DNA from: Octopus vulgaris
Lineage: Eukaryota
Reading direction: 5' to 3'
Length of the DNA: 64,000 nucleotides
Assembly: GCA_951406725.2 (NCBI GenBank)
Contig: OX597815.1
Coordinates: 75,950,001 to 76,014,000, forward strand
In this document: positions 15,907-62,258 of the stretch, one piece after another
Layout: every line of letters starts with the position of its first letter
Numbering within the stretch: the first letter of the stretch is position 1
Position numbers and translations under genes: made by a program
The notes under the pieces: model-generated
What the model saw: only the letters and a program-made list of their open reading frames with translations
What the model was told of the DNA's origin: nothing
The model's database searches: none

Positions 15907-16432
15907 CCTTTAATGATTATACCTTTACATTATAAAATCTTAAATGCATATTTTTTTGAGAATCTTGTGCAATCAAACCAAGGTATTATTCAGTTACATC
16001 AGATATGTATTCAAATACTCTTATTAATATTCTTCTATAGTATTTTTAACTATTTTACAATATTTATAAGCATAGTAAACTATAATTTAACCCTTTAACA
16101 TCAGCCATATCCAGCCCAAACATTTCCACCTGTTTTATGTTCAAACTGTCATAATCTGGCTTCTCACACCTTTAATGATTATACCTTTGCATTATAAAAT
16201 CTTAAATGCATATTTTTTTGAGAATCTTGTGCAATCAAACCAAGGTATTATTCAGTTACATCAGATATGTATTCAAATACTCTTATTAATATTCTTCTAT
16301 AGTATTTTTAACTATTTTACAATATTTATAAGCATAGTAAACTATAATTTAACCCTTTAACATCAGCCATATCCAGCCCAAACATTTCCATCTGTTTTAT
16401 GTTCAAACTGTCATAATCTGGCTTCTCACACC
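15907..16432. repeat. 262-bp direct tandem duplication
   Basis: 15907-16168 is repeated at 16169-16430 with only about 2 visible substitutions; two ORFs in the track share an identical translation. Confidence 0.95.
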
Positions 16433-16567
16433 TACCTTACAATGTCAATCTAAAAATATACCAGCTCATCATCAAAATCTCAAAGATACATGATGATACT
16501 TGATTAATACAAAACAATGTGAATAAATAAGTATAACATTTGACAAAGTAATTTGAATGCTAAAGGG
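16353..16567. mobile_element. piggyBac-like MITE
   Basis: TTAA|CCCTTTAACAT ... ATGCTAAAGGG|TTAA; its 5' part is also present in the upstream duplicate copy. Confidence 0.7.
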
Positions 16568-36796: not shown

Positions 36797-39700
36797 ATTT
36801 TTCAAACCTACTTTCTTGCTCACGATTAACAGAACCTTTTCCTAGTTTCTGGACTAGTTAGATTGCCTGACAAACTCAGATTTTACCTTTTTTGCCCCAA
36901 GTCTATATTAGTTATCAAATAATAAATATTATCGACACTGCCATCCCCTTTCAACTATGCTAGTCAAAGTTCCTCACACCGCTTCCTCCCACGTGTTCCT
37001 TGACCACCTCTCTCTCCCTATGTTTCTCTATGTCCCCCTCTTTCCATAATCACCATCGCCACATATAAATGAGCAAACGCATAATCGGTAACCCCACTCA
37101 CTTCCAAATCCCTAACGAAGAAATACGCACAGCTCATGAACGGTTAAAGTTAAGAAATTCTTCTTTCAACCTCGCTTTCCTCTACCTTCTATCTTTGCAC
37201 GTATCATCATTATTCTTTCATTATTCTTCGATTACTCTCTCATTATATTGTTCCTTCAGTACTCTCTCATTATATTATTCTTTCAGTACTCTCTCATTAT
37301 ATTATTCTTTCAGTACTCTCTCACTATATTATTCTCTCAGTATTCTCTCATTACTCTGTCTAGCTCAGTAACATGCCATTCATGTAAATTATTCTTTCAG
37401 TATTTTCTCATTACTCTGTCTAGCTCAAATATGTTTTTTGTTTAGTCTTATCTCCCTGTTGCTCCCGGTTCATAGCCACTTATCTTTCCCCTAAAAATCT
37501 CACTTTCTCAGATTTTTCAAACCTAGTTTCTTGCTCACACGATTAACAGAACCTCTTCCTAGTTTATGGTGCAACCTCCCTCCTACCCCCTCCACACATG
37601 CCGGAAGTTCCTATTCTTTGCCATCACGGGGTTGCTTCCCATGAAGACTGCAAATGCTCTTTCACCATCCCTACCCCTAGTCTTGACCTATGTAAAGTAA
37701 TGTTCATACAGTGCAAAATATGAAAGGCTAGTGTTATGCAGGCTACTGTATTACTTGCACATGAATTCTGCCAAATGCGAGCTTTCTTTTCAGGTACATG
37801 AAGCTACCGGCCACCGTCCCAGGGTCTCTAGGTCCCATACCTCCCACATCCTCAGGGTTGGCACCCTCAACCGTTGGCACACTGAAAGGTAGGTCTGGCG
37901 AGATAGTCGAGATGCTTGAACGGAGATGTGTGGATATATGTTGCATGCAAGAAGTAAGGTGGAGAGGAGGATCTGCTAGGTTCCTCACAGGCAAGGAACA
38001 CAGGTACAAGATTTTCTGGGCAGGGAACACTGATGGGGTTGGTGGCGTGGGTATACTTATCGCTGAGAAATGGGTAGTAATTGAGGTAATCAGAGTATGT
38101 GACAGAATACTTAAGATTAGATTAGTGCTTCATCATAGTTTAGCAACCATTATATCGGCCTATGCTCCTCAGTCGGGGCTACCCGATGGACAGAAAGACC
38201 GATTCTATGACACTCTACTGCAGACTACCTCGTTGACGAACGACAGACCTTCTCTTTGTGGCTGGTGACTTCAATGATCACGTTGGACGTCATGCTGGGG
38301 GCTTCCATGGTGTACATGGAAGCTATGGCTATGGTTCCCGCAACGAGGAGGGAACCAGCCTGCTGGAGTTCTGTGATGCAAATAATCTTATGATTTGCAA
38401 CACTAACTTCACGAAACCTACCAGCCACCTAGTCACCTACCGATCGGGCCAACATACCAGCCAAATTGACTACATCCTTGCCAGGCAAAGGGTGAGATGG
38501 CTGCTTATAAATGCCAAAACCTTCCCAGGTGAAAAATGTACCCCACAACATAGACTGGTAGTTAGTGACTTTAGGATCAGGACTAGGAGGACAACCAGAA
38601 GACGACCAACATGGAGAAGAAGGATCTGGAAGCTTAAAGATCCTGCGAATGGACAGAGATTTAGGGACATGCTATGTGAAGCCTTTGACGAAGTAGAAGG
38701 GGATAGAGTATCACATGGGGTAGAAGGCAACTGGACGTTTCTAAGGGACAACCTGCTGAGAGCCACTGACCAGATCTGTGGCTGGTGCAAAGTCCCCTCT
38801 CGTCCCAAGGTAACGTGGTGGTGGAACAGTGTTGTAGACAGGGCTATTAAAGAAAAGAGACAGACTTGGAAGGACTGGAAGAATGGTGGTAGCAAATAAT
38901 TGTATCAGACTGCCAAAAGGGAAGCTAGGAGACAGGTCTATCTAGCCAGAGGGGAAGCAGATAAGAAAAAATTTGCCAATGTTCTGTGTCGTGAGGACCA
39001 AAGACTGGAGGTGTTTCGCGTTGCAAGACAGTGTGTGAGAGAGAATTGTGATGTGGTAGGAGAGAAGTGTGTTTACATGGAAGATGGTTCACTTGCACTA
39101 AATGAGGATGCAAAGAGAGAGGTTTGGAGACGCCACTATGAAAGGTTGCTGAATAAAGAAAATGAATGGGATAAAGAGAGTCTGCCGAATGTTAACCCAA
39201 CAGAGGGACCAGCTATCCGAGTTGACAGTTCCTTGGTAGTTAAGGCAATTAGAAGCATGAAGACAGGGAAAGCCCCAGGCCCATCAGGAATCACTGCAGA
39301 GATGCTCAAAATATCTGGTAGTGTCGGCTATAGCCTAGTCACCCGTATAGTTAATCAGGTGATACATGAAGGAGTCATACCCAATGACTGGTGTAGCAGC
39401 ATAATAGTCAACTGCTACAAAGGTAAAGGTGACGCCCTAGATACAAATAATTACAGAGGTATCAAGCTGTTGGATCAGGTAATAAAGGTTACGTAGAGGG
39501 TCATAGCCCAACTAATTAGAGAGAGAGTTAGTTTGGATGAGATACAGTTTGGGTTCGTGCCAGGGAAAAGTACCACTGATGCTATATTCCTGGTAAGGCA
39601 GCTGCAGGAGAAATACCTAGCCAAAGATAAGCCCCTGTACCTGGCTTTTGTTGACATGGAGAAAGCCTCCGACAGGGTCCCCCGATCCCTTATCTGGTGG

Positions 39701-41385
39701 TCAATGAGGAAACTAGGGATAGATGAATGGTTAGTGAGAGCTGTGCGAGCCATGTACAGGGACGCTGCTAGTAAGGTGAGGGTTGGCAACGAGTACAGTG
39801 AAGAATTCCGAGTAGAGGTAGGGGTCCACCAAGGCTCAGTCCTCAGCCCCCTCCTATTTATCATAGTCCTCCAGGCAATAACAGAGGAATTCAAGATAGG
39901 GTGCCCTTGGGAGCTCCTCTATGCTGATGACCTTGCTCTAATTGCTGAGTCACTATCAGAACTGGAGGAGAAGTTTCAGGTGTGGAAGCAAGGATTAGAA
40001 TCGAAGGGCCTTAGAGTCAATCTAGCTAAAACCAAAGTCCTAATAAGTAGGAAGGTAGACAAATCACAAACGCCTTCAGGTAGATGGCCCTGCTCGATCT
40101 GTAGAAAAGGTGTAGGTAGAAACTCTATAAGATGCACCAAGTGTAAGCTATGGACACATAAGAGGTGCAGCAACGTCAAAGGAAGGTTAACTAGGAAGAT
40201 AGTTTTTGTATGTGGCAGATGCTCAGGAACAATAAACACTGAAAATGCTCTGAGACCAACTTCTGTCACTTTCCAGGGAGAAAAACTAGAAATAATTAAT
40301 AGCTTCCGTTACCTAGGTGTCCAAGTCAGCAGCGGGGGCGGGTGTGCTGAAAGTGTAACTGCTAGAGTAAGAATAGCTTGGGCAAAGTTCAGAGAGCTCT
40401 TACCTCTGGTGGTGACAAAGGCCTCTCACTCAGAGTAAAAGGCAGACTGTATGACGCGTGTGTACGAACAGCCATGCTACATGACAGTGAAACATGGGCC
40501 GTGACTGCTGAGGATATGCGTAAGCTCGCAAGAAATGAAGCCAGTATGCTCCGATGGATGTGTAATGTCAGTATTCATACTCGACAGAGTGTAAGTACCT
40601 TGAGAGAAAAGCTGGACCTAAGAAGCATCAGATGTGGTGTGCAAGAGAGACGTTTGCGCTAGTATGGACATGTGGCGAGAATGGATGAAGATAGTTGTGT
40701 GAAAAAGTGCCACACCCTAGCGGTTGAGGGAACCTGTGGAAGAGGCAGACCCAGGAAAACCTGGGACGTGGTGGTGAAGCACGACCTTCGAACTTTAGGT
40801 CTCACTGAGGAAATGACTAGAGACCGAGACCTCTGGAAGTATGCTGTGCGTGAGAAGACCCGGCAGGACAACTGAGACCATAACCCGTGGTCTTCTACAT
40901 GGGATGTAGCCAGTCCACTTATGCATACCTTCCCTTCTCTACTTGTGAAGACCTGTTGAGGCAAGTGAGAATCAGAATCGAAATCGATCAATGGAAATTG
41001 CAGCTGAGTTACCAGTGCCGGTGGCACGTAAGAGAACCATCCGAACGTGGCCGTTGCCAGCGCCACCCCGACTGGCCTCGTGCCGGTGGCACGTAAAAAG
41101 CACCATCCGTTCGTGGCCGTTGCCAGCGGCGCCCCGACTGGCCTCGTGCCGGTGGCACATAAAAAGCACCATCCGATCGTGGCTGTTTGCCAGACTCGTC
41201 TGGCGCCTGTGCTGGTGGCACGTAAAAAGCACCCACTACACTCATGGAGTGGTTGGCGTTAGGAAGGGCATCCAACCGTAGAAAAATTGCCAGATCAAAC
41301 TGGGCCTGGTGCAGCCTTCTGGCTTCCCAGACCCCAGTTGAACCGCTAGCATGGAAAGCGGACGCTAAACGACGATGATGATGAT
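36797..41385 (+). mobile_element. Near full-length, inactivated RTE-clade LINE (APE + RT with PHD-like finger)
   Basis: APE motifs (CMQEVRW, SAYAPQ, GDFN.HVG, QIDYIL, QHRLV) and RT motifs (KAPGPSG, NYRGIKLL, QFGF.PGKSTTDAIF, GVHQGSVLSPLLF, YADD at ~39920, FRYLG). Broken by stops (38897, 39494, 40660) and frameshifts (~37870, ~38250, ~40420). The 3'UTR has ~65-bp repeats and a (GAT)n tail. The 5' boundary is approximate. Confidence 0.95.
37195..37430. repeat. ~30-bp minisatellite in the RTE 5' region
   Basis: Repeated ATTATATTATTCTTTCAGTACTCTCTC units. Confidence 0.85.
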
Positions 41386-47856: not shown

Positions 47857-47930
47857 GTTGAAGAAAAGCCAGAAACAAAATCAAGACGTTCTTCTAAGCG
47901 TGTGAGTTTTGCCAATTATGCGGAAGTCAA
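47857..47930 (+). CDS. KNL1: KNL1 exon carrying RVSF
   Basis: VEEKPETKSRRSSKRVSFANYAEV(K) fits the RVSFA...VK.F signature of KNL1/Spc7; acceptor TTTATAG, donor GTGAGT. Confidence 0.92.
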
Positions 47931-48031
47931 GTGAGTATTAAATGAAATTTACATATATTTGGAATCATTCATTTTATGTATATTGAAATATTGTCTTGAT
48001 AATCTTTATTTTTATTTCTAAATCTTTTTAG

Positions 48032-50738: not shown

Positions 50739-51676
50739 GTAAGATTATTTTTCCTTTAATAACATGGTTTTATCAGTTTTGCATTATTTTCATTTATCTA
50801 CATATTTCAAATGTAAACGTTTGGACCCTTCTTTTCATCCTTGACAAAGTTAAATTTTCTCTGCAAACATTTATTTGAAGATATTCAAGCTGGTTGTTGG
50901 TCCCCACCCGCCAGTGTTAGAGTCTGTAAAAATCATGGCTCCTTCCATACATTCTTTACCTAATTAAAGAGAAAAATATGTTAATCTAATATGAAAATAA
51001 TAGCTAATAACATTTCTGGAAATTGAAACCATGAGGAGCAAATTAATTTGGATATGGCATATTATATGGAGGTAGAGTAGAAAACAGACAGAACAGAGAC
51101 AATATTAGCAAACCCTGTAATAGATAGTTAAGACGAACAAAGCTAATTGAAGAAAATTATAAAGTAGTACTAGTTAAGTTGAAAAGAGATGAAATTTGAA
51201 ATGTAAAAGCAGGAAAATTGAATGTGTATTTGATAGTAATAATCATTTAAGATTATTACTAGATTGCAAATTAGTTTACTTTGCACAAATCTGCCTCTTA
51301 ATTCAGTATTATTAATCTTTTCTGAATGTAATGTATGTGGGTTCTAGTCTACATAGGTGTTAGACTTAATATTACCCACATATTACCTTGGATATCTTTA
51401 GTGGAGTTCATTCTGTCGTAAGCATTTAAGACTGTGACCATTTTGAGGACACTTCTCCACATTCCTCATTCCCTCTCACTAGTCTCAAAGGATTTGCCTT
51501 CCTTCCTGACAAAAACATAGAATTAAAAATAAAAAAACAGTTGTGGGTGAAAATCCTGTTGGGGTTACTTTTTGTTTTAACATTTTCAAGAGTCCAAAAA
51601 AAAAAATGTCATGTAACTTAAGAAATCTATTTTTGAAAAGAGAAAGAAAGCTATTAAACATTTTCTTCACTTTCAG

Positions 51677-51729
51677 ATATCCAATCACTGTTGACAGGTG
51701 AAATTAAAAACACTGCTCATGCAGTTGAG
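51677..51729 (+). CDS. KNL1: KNL1 exon (DIQSLLTGEIKNTAHAVE)
   Basis: ACTTTCAG / GAG|GTATGT; ISDIQSLLTGEI resembles human KNL1 ITGMNTLLSAPI. Confidence 0.82.
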
Positions 51730-55860: not shown

Positions 55861-55943
55861 AATATTTCAGACGATGAAAGTGATGAAGAAATGCGCATTG
55901 CAGTTAATCCTGTAAACCAAAGTATTTTGATATCTCCAGAAAA
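55861..55943 (+). CDS. KNL1: KNL1 exon (NISDDESDEEMRIAVNPVNQSILISPEK)
   Basis: Long pyrimidine tract plus CTATAG acceptor; the phase-2 donor AA|GTTTGT is the one that keeps frame with the next exon. Confidence 0.7.
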
Positions 55944-57750: not shown

Positions 57751-60700
57751 AGTTTCTACTACAACCTCCAGATCAACCACTGTTTCTCAAACTATAGAGG
57801 ATAAAGAAAACATCAATGTTTGCAGAGTTGATCCTGAAGTGAAAGACTCAGTACCTCAAGCTAAGTATGATGCAAACAACACTGATAAACAAGCACAAGA
57901 TACATCATTTCTAGAGAAAGTCATGGCAGATGTTCCACTATCTTCTGCTGCTACTTCTTCAGAAAAGAGCTTGTTATTTACAAATGATTTTAATTGTCCC
58001 GCTTCATTGAGCACTGAACTTTTTCTTTATAATTATGTTCGTGTACATACAAAAGATGATAGCAAGATTCAAACACCTGATGAGTCAAACGAAAATGATT
58101 CTTTATCAGACTCTCCTCATTTGGATAAATCTTTGTATCAAGGTAACCATACTGTTTATTTTGATAGGAATGATTCAATGGACTTAACAAAACCTTTGGG
58201 AAAATATCTCACAGATTGTAATGAAAGCAAGGATGATATTGTCAGTAGTCCTGATGGTCATATAATTGGATACTACAATCAAAATAATAGCTATGATGAA
58301 AAAACTATTTATTTCAATAAAACTCATTATGCAGCCGGTAATATGGACTTGACATGCTGTAACACCATAACAATTGCTGATTTTCCTGAAAGTGGAAGAC
58401 CAGTTGAGATTACCAATGTGAAGGATGTAGAAAATATTGAGAATTTTTGTGAAAACAAGCAGTTTAATATAGATGAAAGTTTTTGTAAACCAACTAAAGA
58501 CCTAAATAACCCATTAAGATTACCAGCAGATAATTATATGCCACCCTCTTCTAATAATTCTATTGTTCAGCTGCCTAGTCTTGCTTCAAAGAATATAATT
58601 GACAAAAAAGACATACCATGTGAATTGAATGGAATGCCGTCTGATAATTTCAAATCAAATAGTAATGCAAAAGATGGTCTTGGTTCAGTGAGTGATTGTA
58701 GACCAAGTATTACTAATGTAACTGATAGTAAAACAGGAGCAAATGTTTTAAAGGATGAAAAAGAACATATTAAGACAGGATCAAAGAGGACCTGTGTTTC
58801 TGAATCCTCTGACATACCTTCAAAACAGTCAAATACATATGATATAATTGAACCAGCCATTAACAAACCAACTGAAAAGAAATCTGATTTCAAGAACCAT
58901 GTTCAGCCAGTGACTACCAGTGAATCAGTTCCTGAGAAGTTAGTTCTTAAAGAAAGTACAGAGTCTTATATGGTAGAATCTTCTAGGTCCTGTCCAAAAA
59001 AGACTCTGGTTGATACATCGCAGTCAACTTCAAAAGAATTGACTGTAACTAAATCCACCAAATCATTTCTAAACACGCAAGAATTATTTGATTCTACTCA
59101 GTTTAATGATGGTAAATTTAGTAAATTAGCTAAAGAACTTAAAACTAGTGCTTCAAAATTGCCAGCAGATAACTGTATTCTACCATCTTCTAATAATTTT
59201 GATCGGTCTAATCTTCCCCCAAAGAATATAATTGACAAAGAAAACATGCCATATGAATTAAATGGAATACAGTCTGTTAGTTTCAGAGCAAATAGTACTG
59301 CTAAAGATGATCTTGGTTCAGTGACAGATTTTAAAGCCACTATTTCCAATATTTCTAATACCAGAACAGAAGGAAGTGTTTTAAAGGATCAAAAAGAACA
59401 TATTAAAACAGGATCAAAGAAAACATATTTTTCTGAAACCTCTGACATACATTCAAAACAGTCAAATACACATGATATAATTGAACCGGCCATTAAGAAG
59501 CAACATATTTCTGGTTCAAATTTGCCAGCAGATAACTGTATTCTACCATCTTCTAATAATTTTGATCGGTCTAATCTTCCCCCAAAGAATATAATTGACA
59601 ACGAAAACATGCCATATGAATTAAATGGAATACAGTCTGTTAGTTTCAGAGCAAATAGTACTGCTAAAGATGATCTTGGTTCAGTGACAGATTTTAATGC
59701 CACTATTTCCAATATTTCTAATATCAGAACAGAAGGAAGTGTTTTAAAGGATCAAAAAGAACATATTAAAACAGGATCAAAGAAAACATATTTTTCTGAA
59801 ACCTCTGACATACATTCAAAACAGTCAAATACACATGATATAATTGAACCGGCCATTAAGAAGCAACATATTTCTGGTTCAAATTTGCCAGCAGATAACT
59901 GTATTCTACCATCTTCTAATAATTTTGATCGGTCTAATCTTCCCCCAAAGAATATAATTGACAACGAAAACATGCCATATGAATTAAATGGAATACAGTC
60001 TGTTAGTTTCAGAGCAAATAGTACTACTAAAGATGATCTTGGTTCAGTGACAGATTTTAATGCCACTATTTCCAATATTTCTAATATCAGAACAGAAGGA
60101 AGTGTTTTAAAGGATCAAAAAGAACATATTAAAATAGGATCAAAGAAAACTTTTTTTTCTGATACCTCTGACATACATTCAAAACAGTCAAATACACATG
60201 ATATAATTGAACCGGCCATTAAGAAGCAAAATATTTCTGGTTCAAATTTGCCAGCAGATAGCTGTATTCTACCTTCTTCAAAATCTTGAGTTTGCTTCAA
60301 AGTTATCAAGTTTAATTTGTGCTGACAAGAATGAATTGAATGATTTTAATGGTTCAGTTGAAAAGAAATCAGATTTCGGGGACCGTGCTCAGCCTGTGAC
60401 TGCCAGTAAGACAGTTCCAAAGGAGCTAGTTCTTTCTACAGTGTCTCATATAGGAGAATCTTCCTGGTCCTGTCCAAAAAAGACTCTAGTTGATACATCA
60501 CAATCAGCTACAGAGGAAATGAGCATAATTAAATCCACCAAAACAGTTCCAAATAGGCAAGATTTATTTGATGTTACTGAATTTGATAATGACAAATTTA
60601 ATAAATTAGCTCAAGAGCCTTATTTGATGTTACTGAATTTGATAATGACAAATTTAATAAATTAGCTCAAGAGCCTTCAACTAATACTTCAAAATTACCA

Positions 60701-62258
60701 GCAGATAACTGTTTTCTGACCTCTTGTAATAAGCCTACTGATCAGCCAGTTAATATTCCCTCAAAAAATATAATAAACAAAGTAAATATACCTGGAGAAT
60801 TAAATAATATTGAAAGTGCGAAAATAGAATCTTTTAAAATGGATGTTCCTGTTAATGTCAGAGGTAAGACTTTTCCAAAAGATGATCTTGATTCAGTGAC
60901 TGATTTTAAACCAAGTGTTACTAATATATCTAATAGCAGAACAGGAGGAAGTATTTTGAAGGATCAAAAAGAACATATTAAGGCAGGATCAAAGAGGACC
61001 TGTTTTTCTGAAACCTCTGGCATACCTTCAAAACAGGCAAACACACATGGCTCACAGGTTGGTAAATTAACAGACTTGTCTGATACAATTTCCTCTCAAA
61101 ATAAAAGTAACCACATTAAAGCAGCTGAGTCTCCAATCAAAAATGCATCTCAAATAACTTCCTGTTTGACAGATCCTTTAGTTCAGTTCTGTGCTCATGA
61201 CAGCATTAACAATGAAAAGTTGAAAGATTCTGATACTAATTTAAATGGAATGAATGCAAGTGATGTTAATATTTTAAAGACAAAAGAGAAAGCTGTTGGA
61301 TTGTTAAGTTCATCTGCAAGTTGTGAACAGATAAAATACAGTTCAGGAGAAGTTACTAATGAAAAGGAAAAAAAGATTAAAGGTGACATAGTTGCAGAAA
61401 AAGTCGATAATGTTACTGGGATGCAATCAGAGAAAAAACGTGTACTTTATGTTAGTATGAACACAAGTGGTGTTGTACACTCATTTAATGTAGAAAAATC
61501 TGAGGGTTCTGCTTCATGTTCAAAAGGATTACATTTAATAGAAAAGGATTCTGTAGAGACAAATGAATTTACGCCTCCTTTTGGTTCTAGTTTCACAGAA
61601 AAATGTAAGGAAAATGTTCCTAATGAAATAATGCCATCTTCAAAACAGCTTCCAGATTATCCTAATACAGCAGTAGATGAACAAAATGCAATCAGGAGTA
61701 ATGCAGACCAAACATTAGTATCTTGTAATAAAGCAGAGAAATTGTCAGAAAATGGCATACAGGAAAATAAAATACAAACTGGCAATAATAATAAAATACA
61801 AACTGAAAAACACAAATTGAGTGCAACAAATAATTTGACAAAACTGCAAAATAAACTGTTCAATGTTGGGAATGTCATAGAAAATGCGAATAAAGGTGAA
61901 ATGAAAAAAGGTTTTAGTGATTGTGTTTTGAAAATAAATACTTCAGATGTGCCTGATAAATGTCATCAACCCCAAATTTCTTCTAATAATAATTTTAAGA
62001 AATCAAATGACTCTTCTTTCAATACTTCAAGTGTATTTTCTCGAAGGCAAACATGTTCTGAAACAATTAGCTCAAAATTAATTCAAACTTCTTTGAACAG
62101 TAGTTCTTTTACTGTTAATAAGAGCAGTTTGATGGCTGAGAGCAGTATACAACCAGATAAAGTTGTTACAGAGAAGTGTTTGAGAACTGATATCAGTGGT
62201 ACTCAATATGATACAAATAGTGTATCAGAGAAAACTGGCTTTGATTTTGACTATGCTG
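57751..62258 (+). CDS. KNL1: KNL1 giant exon (MELT/repeat region); contains two apparent frameshifts
   Basis: Acceptor TTACTAG, donor G|GTGAGT at 62259. Two T-x-x-F...MDLT modules (HTVYFDRNDSMDLT, KTIYF..GNMDLTCCNT) and low-complexity S/K/N-rich sequence. It spans track ORFs 57839-60289, 60207-60665 and 60839-62296, which are linked by internal repeat homology. Confidence 0.85.
59161..60280 (+). repeat. Coding tandem repeat, 363-bp unit x3 plus a partial copy
   Basis: GCCAGCAGATA recurs at 59161, 59524, 59887 and 60250; copies are nearly identical; diverged copies at ~58520-58865 and ~60695-61050. Confidence 0.97.
60564..60676 (+). repeat. 56-bp exact tandem duplication inside the KNL1 exon
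   Basis: TATTTGATGTTACTGAATTTG..CAAGAGCCT starts at 60565 and again at 60621. Confidence 0.95.

What the first reader, a model, noticed from the sequence alone, without database searches (positions are those of the whole stretch)
57751..62258. KNL1 with only two MELT motifs; the expanded repeat unit carries no MELT
Established: KNL1 orthologues usually carry arrays of MELT-like repeats (Mps1 phospho-sites that recruit BUB3-BUB1), and these arrays evolve by repeat expansion. Seen: in ~1500 codons only two canonical modules occur (MDLT at 58178 and 58343). The amplified unit is instead a 121-aa block (LPADNCILPSSNN..IIDKENMPYELNG..DDLGSVTDF..KTGSKKTYFSETSD..IIEPAI), arranged A0-B1-A1-A2-A3-partial-B2-A4. 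Block A keeps a KT.F half-motif but no MELT. Block B has only eroded look-alikes (KTLV..KELTVT, KTLV..EEMSII). Inference: the MELT array may have decayed and been replaced by a new repeated motif, implying altered spindle-checkpoint signalling in this lineage.
Basis: partly seen in the sequence, partly recalled or inferred. Interest (0 to 1): 0.75.

Follow-up and report, generated by a model that had tools for sequence, protein, structure and literature searches.

The report
Octopus kinetochore scaffold, two checkpoint docks
This is the octopus gene for the chromosome-attachment scaffold KNL1, which keeps only two of the checkpoint docking motifs that most animals sampled here carry in larger arrays, while its recently multiplied 121-residue block has none and is likely copied spacer rather than a replacement signal.

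Summary
The observation largely holds. The exon belongs to the Octopus vulgaris KNL1 orthologue (SILK/RVSF, C-terminal coiled coil and RWD). Full-length proteins of two other Octopus species and of Argonauta each carry exactly two TxxF/W-MELT modules, none downstream. Block A has no MELT and does not score as a divergent module; the B look-alikes score within shuffled background. 8 of 8 laid runs lack both lesions, so the 'partial' block is probably an assembly error. A truncated, broken second copy lies on C20. 'Replaced by a new motif' is unsupported: A is no better conserved than unique linker (91% against 89%), descends from single-copy linker, and Argonauta and cuttlefish amplified unrelated repeats. 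Low MELT counts and repeat turnover are known (PMC4558858); I found no paper on cephalopods. Lead: a cuttlefish-type KNL1 has seven internal RVxF (PP1-docking) motifs, and A holds a weak, non-consensus look-alike. The scan noted KNL1 repeat turnover before in a sea urchin, not this locus.

The parts
47857..47931 (+). Upstream KNL1 exon carrying the N-terminal RVSF PP1-docking motif (tblastn bounds, approximate)
   Evidence: 100% identity to residues 33-57 of P0001
48030..48071 (+). Small upstream KNL1 exon (tblastn bounds, approximate)
51664..51729 (+). Small upstream KNL1 exon (tblastn bounds, approximate)
55861..55943 (+). Exon spliced directly to the large exon; first exon inside the segment duplicated on C20
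   Evidence: loose ends at 57751 in 4 of 4 runs are the end of this exon
57751..62258 (+). Large internal KNL1 exon (AG..GT) encoding the disordered middle; broken in this assembly
58151..58189 (+). TxxF-MDLT module 1, predicted BUB3-BUB1 phospho-dock
   Evidence: Pfam MELT E 4e-5, below the curated cut-off; 7.9 bits; kept in Argonauta
58304..58354 (+). TxxF-MDLT module 2, predicted BUB3-BUB1 phospho-dock
   Evidence: (18.9 bits against shuffled maximum 5.4); kept in Argonauta
58520..58861 (+). Block A0 (114 aa), older copy, 58-62% identical to A1-A3
58862..59158 (+). Block B1; eroded MELT look-alike not above shuffled background
59159..60247 (+). A1, A2, A3: young 363-bp tandem copies, 94-97% identical in protein; one such copy in O. 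bimaculoides, three in O. sinensis X1
59375..59431 (+). Within A1: SILK-like motif (59375-59386) followed by the K[KR]T.F motif (59417-59431); repeated in A2, A3, A4 and, decayed, A0. Fails the RVxF and TxxF consensus
60248..60289 (+). 'Partial' A: start of a further copy, frame break near 60279, TGA at 60287-60289; probable assembly error
60279..60694 (+). Linker plus block B2, read in a shifted frame up to the duplication
60564..60677 (+). Perfect 56-bp tandem duplication (frameshift); skipped in 8 of 8 laid runs, probable assembly error
60695..61051 (+). Block A4 (119 aa); holds the only exact internal SILK match (60950-60961)
61052..62258 (+). Non-repeated, MELT-free tail of the exon, predicted disordered; used as the linker control

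Best explanation
This is octopus KNL1, whose two conserved TxxF-MDLT modules likely serve as the only BUB3-BUB1 phospho-docks, while blocks A and B are duplicated stretches of the middle region that likely act as flexible spacer and not as new checkpoint docks. Shown: orthology, two modules in three full-length octopod proteins, no MELT in A, and A copy number that differs between species. Inferred history: the MELT array shrank in coleoid cephalopods (4 in the cuttlefish-type protein, 2 in octopods) before the A amplification. In Octopus a single-copy stretch behind module 2 was then duplicated as an A-B block, and A1 alone was recently copied in tandem, probably by unequal crossing-over within the large exon. 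Inferred from family knowledge, untested here: Mps1 phosphorylates the two MDLT threonines, PP1 docks at the N-terminal SILK/RVSF, and the RWD pair binds the Mis12 complex. All three coleoid lineages keep a MELT-free stretch of over 1000 residues filled with unrelated repeats, so length rather than sequence may be what is kept.
For: Orthology: the octopus C-terminal half retrieves 15 proteins at E<=0.001 from 1.84 billion. Of 12 scanned, 11 carry Knl1_RWD_C and the twelfth is named kinetochore scaffold 1. The family profile hits human KNL1 chains 8PPR, 8Q5H, 4NF9, 4NFA. The model's 5 matches at E<=0.001 are all KNL1. MELT count: 2 in P0007, P0002 and P0003. A profile from 105 non-octopod modules finds only these two above shuffles. 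Conservation against Argonauta: 62% over the module region, about 28-31% over A (alignment-noise level). A against unique tail between Octopus species: 90.7% and 88.6%, P=0.40. The aromatic residue after the T in the A motif is not kept (Y, C or F). An A profile finds one weak remnant in Argonauta and nothing significant in the cuttlefish-type protein. dN/dS between A0 and the other copies is 0.84-1.03. Precedent: repeat numbers from 0 to about 35 and block duplication as the main mechanism (PMC4558858); in yeast one strong MELT sustains a nocodazole arrest (PMC7292645 passages).
Against: dN/dS between A1-A3 and A4 is 0.49-0.53 with bootstrap intervals that just exclude 1, close to the 0.55 reported for primate MELT repeats, so some constraint on A is not excluded. 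The comparison between Octopus species has little power: even the coiled coil and RWD region is only 92% identical. A short motif could be under selection without raising block-wide identity, and K[KR]T.F is kept in 7 of 8 A copies aligned. In yeast a two-motif mutant entered anaphase early in benomyl, so two docks may not be neutral. Pfam's Knl1_RWD_C model does not hit the octopus sequence directly. Decapodiforms are represented by one cuttlefish-type cluster only; no squid or Nautilus KNL1 was identified among the named hits.
Confidence: 0.66

Rival explanations
1. Block A is an attenuated SILK plus RVxF cassette: extra, weak PP1 docking (or Aurora B) sites that would tune checkpoint silencing, related to the internal RVxF motifs of other coleoid KNL1s.
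For: The cuttlefish-type P0008 has 7 internal RVxF-consensus motifs against 0.45 expected (0 of 500 shuffles), 3 of them exact RVSF, kept in 15 of 15 cluster members listed. Argonauta has 2 (P=0.046). In A a SILK-like motif lies 14 codons before K[KR]T.F (exact SILK in A4). The A motif is the top middle-region hit of an N-terminal RVSF-context profile and ranks 2nd-4th (O. bimaculoides) with a profile of the coleoid internal motifs. PP1 motifs moved to the middle of human KNL1 still silence the checkpoint (PMC6715587 passage).
Against: A has T where the consensus needs V or I, one of the two main contact residues (PMC6406801 passage); internal RVxF matches in Octopus: 0. The profile scores are not above shuffles (2.8 bits against shuffled maxima 3.2-4.4; best window P=0.13), and the resemblance was noticed after the fact. 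K-x-V-x-F also matches lone TxxF motifs, so 4 of the 7 cuttlefish motifs may be orphan MELT-module halves. The A profile does not align to the cuttlefish repeats.
Confidence: 0.12
2. One reading: A (and B) replace the lost MELT array as alternative docks for BUB1-BUB3, for example through the BUB1 TPR as with the TF motifs of C. elegans KNL-1.
For: MELT-independent TF docks exist and are essential in C. elegans (PMC10996584 passages). TxxF and MELT can evolve as separate repeats. The genome encodes a Mad3/BUB1 TPR domain on C9. A carries two T-x-F stretches. B2 is the third-best window of the module profile in O. sinensis.
Against: The worm TF consensus has 0 matches in 3 octopod proteins. A has T-x-F preceded by basic residues, not acidic T-x-x-x-F. 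B2 scores 2.0 bits, within background, and lacks the phospho-acceptor T at the MELT position. The two-MELT state predates A (Argonauta).
Confidence: 0.1
3. The lesions at 60279 and 60564-60677 are real in the sequenced animal, so this copy is a null allele, not an assembly error.
For: The sequence shows a stop and two frame breaks. The public annotation splits the gene into 998-aa and 1018-aa proteins at this point. No laid run is known to be the sequenced individual.
Against: 8 of 8 laid runs from 7 studies lack both lesions. The lesions lie within about 400 bp of the end of a near-perfect tandem array. The only other copy found (C20) is truncated and broken, and KNL1 is essential for chromosome segregation (PMC4558858 abstract).
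Confidence: 0.1

Closest known systems
KNL1/Spc105/CASC5 family (human KNL1; PDB 4NF9, 4NFA, 8PPR, 8Q5H)
   Same: N-terminal SILK and RVSF, TxxF-MELT modules, disordered middle, coiled coil and tandem RWD.
   Different: Two modules instead of about 20, both within the first 340 residues, followed by a MELT-free stretch of 1120-1367 residues (256-872 in the eight non-cephalopod proteins measured).
KNL1 repeat turnover described by Tromer, Snel and Kops 2015 (PMC4558858; parts 1-4 of 5 of the text and parts of the supplement read)
   Same: Block duplication, recent homogenised copies, repeat decay, wide range in number (0 in most land plants, 1 in Spizellomyces), 'second' repeats without MELT.
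   Different: No octopus sequence found in the supplement text held (the file was read only in part). The amplified unit here is 121 aa and carries neither MELT nor TxxF in register.
C. elegans KNL-1 TF motifs bound by the BUB-1 TPR (PMC10996584, passages)
   Same: Repeated non-MELT motifs with T and F in the KNL1 middle or N-terminal region.
   Different: Spacing and context differ; 0 matches to the TF consensus.
SILK/RVxF PP1-docking cassette
   Same: A has a SILK-like motif upstream of K-[KR]-x-x-F.
   Different: T replaces the consensus V/I; profile scores are not above shuffles.
KNL1 of Argonauta hians (P0003) and a cuttlefish-type KNL1 (P0008, 95% identical to the Sepia pharaonis model P0028)
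   Same: Few N-terminal modules (2 and 4), long MELT-free middle with lineage-specific repeats.
   Different: Different repeat units: 8-aa and about 20-aa in Argonauta, about 72-78 aa with RVxF-type motifs in P0008.

Membership tests
KNL1/Spc105 | N-terminal SILK and RVSF PP1-docking motifs | tested here: met
   At residues 18 and 47 of P0007 and P0002; RVSF exon at window 47857-47931. The exon(s) holding SILK were not mapped in the window; the motif is in P0004, annotated from this contig.
KNL1/Spc105 | MELT-like modules in a disordered middle region | tested here: met
   Two modules; residues 1-555 of the C-terminal half have pLDDT under 50.
KNL1/Spc105 | C-terminal coiled coil and tandem RWD domains | tested here: met
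   phmmer hits carry Spc7 and Knl1_RWD_C; profile hits 4NF9 at E 3.5e-38; Foldseek 4NF9_B E 2.3e-11, TM 0.71 by target (the model was built on an alignment with those relatives); Atlas top clusters Knl1_RWD_C at 0.94. Pfam alone misses the octopus domain.
KNL1/Spc105 | Single orthologue per genome | tested here: met
   C-terminal exons match at two places only, C2 and C20; the C20 copy lacks the RVSF exon and is broken. The search scores only the best candidates.
KNL1/Spc105 | Kinetochore localisation and phospho-dependent BUB3-BUB1 binding | not testable with these tools
   Needs cell or binding assays.
TxxF-MELT repeat (block A as member) | MELT-like core with phospho-acceptor T | tested here: not met
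   No strict or broad match in A; no Pfam hit at E<=10 for A0, A1, A4; not above shuffles with a 105-module profile.
TxxF-MELT repeat (block A as member) | TxxF motif | tested here: not met
   A has T-x-F, one residue short.
TxxF-MELT repeat (block B as decayed member) | Profile similarity to the module above chance | tested here: inconclusive
   B2 is the third-best window in O. sinensis but at 2.0 bits, below the shuffled median 2.7; no Pfam hit.
RVxF PP1-docking motif (block A as member) | [K/R]x(0-1)[V/I]x[F/W] consensus | tested here: not met
   T at the V/I position; 0 internal matches in P0007 and P0002 with the stricter recalled pattern, and the only internal match to the published one is the TxxF of module 2.
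RVxF PP1-docking motif (block A as member) | Upstream SILK motif | tested here: inconclusive
   Exact in A4 only; V for I in A1-A3.
C. elegans TF motif | [D/N]-[D/E]-T-hydrophobic-x-hydrophobic-F | tested here: not met
   0 matches in 3 of 3 octopod proteins.

The most novel reading that the evidence does not exclude
Coleoid cephalopods have traded most of KNL1's checkpoint-on docks for checkpoint-off docks: the MELT array has shrunk to 2-4 modules while the middle of the protein has gained PP1-docking RVxF sites (seven in the cuttlefish-type protein, two in Argonauta), and octopus block A is an amplified, attenuated SILK-RVxF cassette that tunes PP1 load at the kinetochore.
Probability: 0.12. 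Interest if true: 0.72.

Novelty: new variant of a known kind. Interest (0 to 1): 0.36.

Why it matters
Octopods appear to segregate chromosomes with two MELT modules per KNL1, the lowest module count among the animal proteins examined here. That is a natural test of how many docks a checkpoint needs, a question so far asked with engineered yeast and human alleles. If block A is only spacer, the finding adds a lineage to a known pattern and flags a split gene model in the O. vulgaris reference. If the internal RVxF motifs of coleoids bind PP1, KNL1 would carry a phosphatase array in place of a BUB array, which my paper searches did not find described.

Tried and rejected
Pfam scans of the full octopus proteins gave no Knl1_RWD_C hit, and phmmer of P0005 against the PDB gave 0 hits; orthology needed relatives. 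A first fold on a 3-row alignment was uninformative (mean pLDDT 33). Word-based searches with the exon and with the C-terminus found only 3 octopod proteins; the alignment search found 6. No squid or Nautilus KNL1 was identified among the named hits; P0033, P0034 and P0040 were not looked up by name. A genome search with Pfam MELT missed even the two known modules, so it says nothing about other MELT arrays. The Atlas gave no usable hit for A1. No listed run is on record as RNA; I use only what contigs bridge, and contig depth was not used as copy number. Nematostella P0037 has 1 strict MELT but several divergent look-alikes, so I do not count it as a one-MELT precedent; strict counts undercount elsewhere too. 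A KEN-like string in A1 is absent from A0, A2, A3 and A4 of the window and was rejected as the amplified signal. No complex was predicted: no whole BUB1 TPR, BUB3 or PP1 sequence was in hand. Some small 5' and 3' exons remain unmapped. Paper searches with no relevant result: KNL1+cephalopod (0), octopus+KNL1 (1, unrelated), KNL1+PP1+multiple RVSF (0), additional/second/internal RVSF (0), checkpoint+mollusc+embryo (28 papers, listing only, none on KNL1 repeats by title). Subscription journals are largely outside this library, and the Tromer supplement was seen only in part (sequences cut at 400 residues, figures absent), which may bear on the novelty claim.
Full report
Observation. The stretch 57751-62258 is one AG..GT exon. 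Contigs of 4 of 4 runs join its start to the exon ending at 55943 and leave it at its 3' end. The two MDLT motifs are at 58178 and 58343, each behind a TxxF. A 363-bp unit is repeated 3.1 times at 98%, and the order A0-B1-A1-A2-A3-partial-B2-A4 is as described. The exon is not an open frame, however: it stops at 60287-60289, changes frame near 60279 and changes back at a perfect 56-bp duplication, 60564-60677.

The breaks are probably assembly errors. I laid 8 of the 24 runs listed (7 studies). All 8 skip the 56 bp and all 8 read a different sequence at 60244-60278. The O. sinensis (P0001, P0007) and O. bimaculoides (P0002) proteins are open across both places. In P0007 the sequence that ends window copy A3 leads into a further full copy, so the 'partial' block is the start of a copy whose remainder is missing here. 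None of the runs is known to be the sequenced animal, so a private allele is not excluded. The public annotation splits the gene at this point into 998-aa and 1018-aa proteins on a contig as long as C2, which identifies the window as Octopus vulgaris.

A second copy lies on C20. It matches from window 55518 to about 23 kb beyond the window at 93-97% and lacks the RVSF exon. It has a 5-base frameshifting insertion at 58604, a 2.58-kb deletion in the exon and a stop in a late exon. Over the shared 1.66 kb it differs by 19 non-synonymous and 2 synonymous changes. Its deletion joint appears as a loose end in run X20, so it is real DNA. No third locus was found.

The gene is KNL1. SILK and RVSF sit at residues 18 and 47. 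The C-terminal half retrieves 15 proteins from 1.84 billion; 11 of the 12 scanned carry Knl1_RWD_C and the twelfth is a cuttlefish model named kinetochore scaffold 1. A profile of these hits human KNL1 structures, the model shows a long coiled coil and two RWD-like domains, and its 5 Foldseek matches at E<=0.001 are all KNL1. Pfam alone misses the octopus domain.

Two modules is the whole count. P0007, P0002 and Argonauta P0003 each have two. A profile trained on 105 modules from non-octopod KNL1s finds only those two above shuffled sequence in P0007 (18.9 and 7.9 bits; shuffled maximum 5.4). In P0002 one of 30 shuffles reached 10.0, above module 1's 7.5. A scores nothing, and B2 scores 2.0. 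Strict counts elsewhere: cuttlefish-type P0008 4, Pomacea 4, tick 6, Exaiptasia 8, four deuterostomes 16-20, Nematostella 1 with several divergent look-alikes. By eye, the first 400 residues of Aplysia in the PMC4558858 supplement show 7 and those of Crassostrea 5. The three coleoid lineages have a MELT-free stretch of 1030-1367 residues, against 256-872 in eight others.

What block A is. An A profile finds a single weak remnant just behind module 2 in Argonauta (E 5e-5), so A began as single-copy linker and the two-module state is older than its amplification. O. bimaculoides has A0, A1 and A4; O. sinensis X1 and the window have three A1-type copies. Between the two species A is 312 of 344 identical and the unique tail 349 of 394 (P=0.40). 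This test is weak, since the RWD region is only 92% identical. Against Argonauta the module region keeps 62% and A about 30%. dN/dS among copies is 0.84-1.03 for pairs with A0 and 0.49-0.53 for A1-A3 against A4, the latter with intervals that exclude 1. Argonauta amplified 8-aa and 20-aa units and P0008 a unit of about 72-78 aa, neither alignable to A. The simplest reading is recurrent tandem duplication in a large, loosely constrained exon.

How it likely works. From family knowledge (PMC4558858, parts 1-4 of 5 read), Mps1 would phosphorylate the two MDLT threonines to dock BUB3-BUB1, PP1 would dock at the N-terminus, and the RWD pair would anchor the protein. None of this was tested in octopus. 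In yeast one strong motif sustains a nocodazole arrest, but a two-motif allele entered anaphase early in benomyl (PMC7292645, passages). A lower signalling capacity per KNL1 is therefore plausible but unproven. The genome encodes a Mad3/BUB1 TPR domain.

P0008 carries 7 internal RVxF-consensus motifs against 0.45 expected, 3 of them exact RVSF; Argonauta has 2, Branchiostoma 3, and the other 9 of 12 full-length proteins have 0 or 1 (the stricter pattern used is recalled, the broader one is from PMC6406801, passages). PP1 motifs work from the middle of human KNL1 (PMC6715587, passages). In A, a SILK-like motif precedes K[KR]T.F, which reads as RVxF with T for V. It ranks high in two profile tests but does not beat shuffles and fails the consensus. 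K-x-V-x-F also fits orphan TxxF halves. The C. elegans TF consensus (PMC10996584, passages) has no match.

Novelty. Repeat loss, block duplication and counts from 0 to about 35 are published. My searches found no paper on cephalopod KNL1 or on multiple internal RVSF motifs, within a library that lacks most subscription journals. The scan's earlier notes include a sea-urchin MELT expansion and nothing like this sequence. Verdict: a real and apparently unreported low-MELT variant of a known protein, with an amplified block that is most likely spacer, seen through a damaged gene model. Interest 0.36.

Noticed in passing
G000:C20:23423674-23453859 (minus strand; L007-L009, L012): About 30-kb segmental duplicate of the 3' part of KNL1, 93-97% identical, 5' truncated, with a frameshift, a 2.58-kb deletion and a stop; O. 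sinensis has an annotated fragment (P0006) that resembles it.
   Followed up: yes
P0008 residues 628-1094 (unnamed protein, 95% identical to Sepia pharaonis P0028): Seven internal RVxF-consensus motifs, three exact RVSF, the last four spaced 72-78 aa apart, at least one behind a GILK; possibly an array of extra PP1 docks. It deserves a look of its own.
   Followed up: partly
P0003 (Argonauta hians) residues about 335-430 and 620-1240: An 8-aa tandem repeat right behind module 2 resembles the end of a MELT module with V or I for M, and a separate 20-aa repeat is amplified more than 20 times; neither scores above shuffles with the module profiles.
   Followed up: partly
P0028 (Sepia pharaonis model, 921 aa): The gene model jumps from residue about 300 to the equivalent of 1310 in P0008, dropping about 1000 residues and three MELT modules; likely a prediction or assembly gap.
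   Followed up: no
P0001 against P0007 (O. sinensis isoforms X2/X3 and X1): The isoforms differ by exactly one 121-aa copy; this may be a false intron from reads mapped across the tandem array, or copy-number polymorphism.
   Followed up: no
window 37765-40938: LINE-like retrotransposon remnant (endonuclease- and reverse-transcriptase-like frames with stops, judged by eye), with related copies on C20.
   Followed up: no
G000:C9:55105229-55106664: Two exons of a Mad3/BUB1 TPR domain; only this locus was found, which would fit a single MadBub-type gene.
   Followed up: no
window 15907-16433: Near-perfect 262-bp tandem duplication (99%) in non-coding sequence; like the 56-bp duplication it could be an assembly artefact.
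   Followed up: no
P0029 (Branchiostoma lanceolatum) residue 951: One internal exact RVSF inside the MELT array of a protein that RefSeq names mucin-22-like but that carries Spc7 and Knl1_RWD_C.
   Followed up: no
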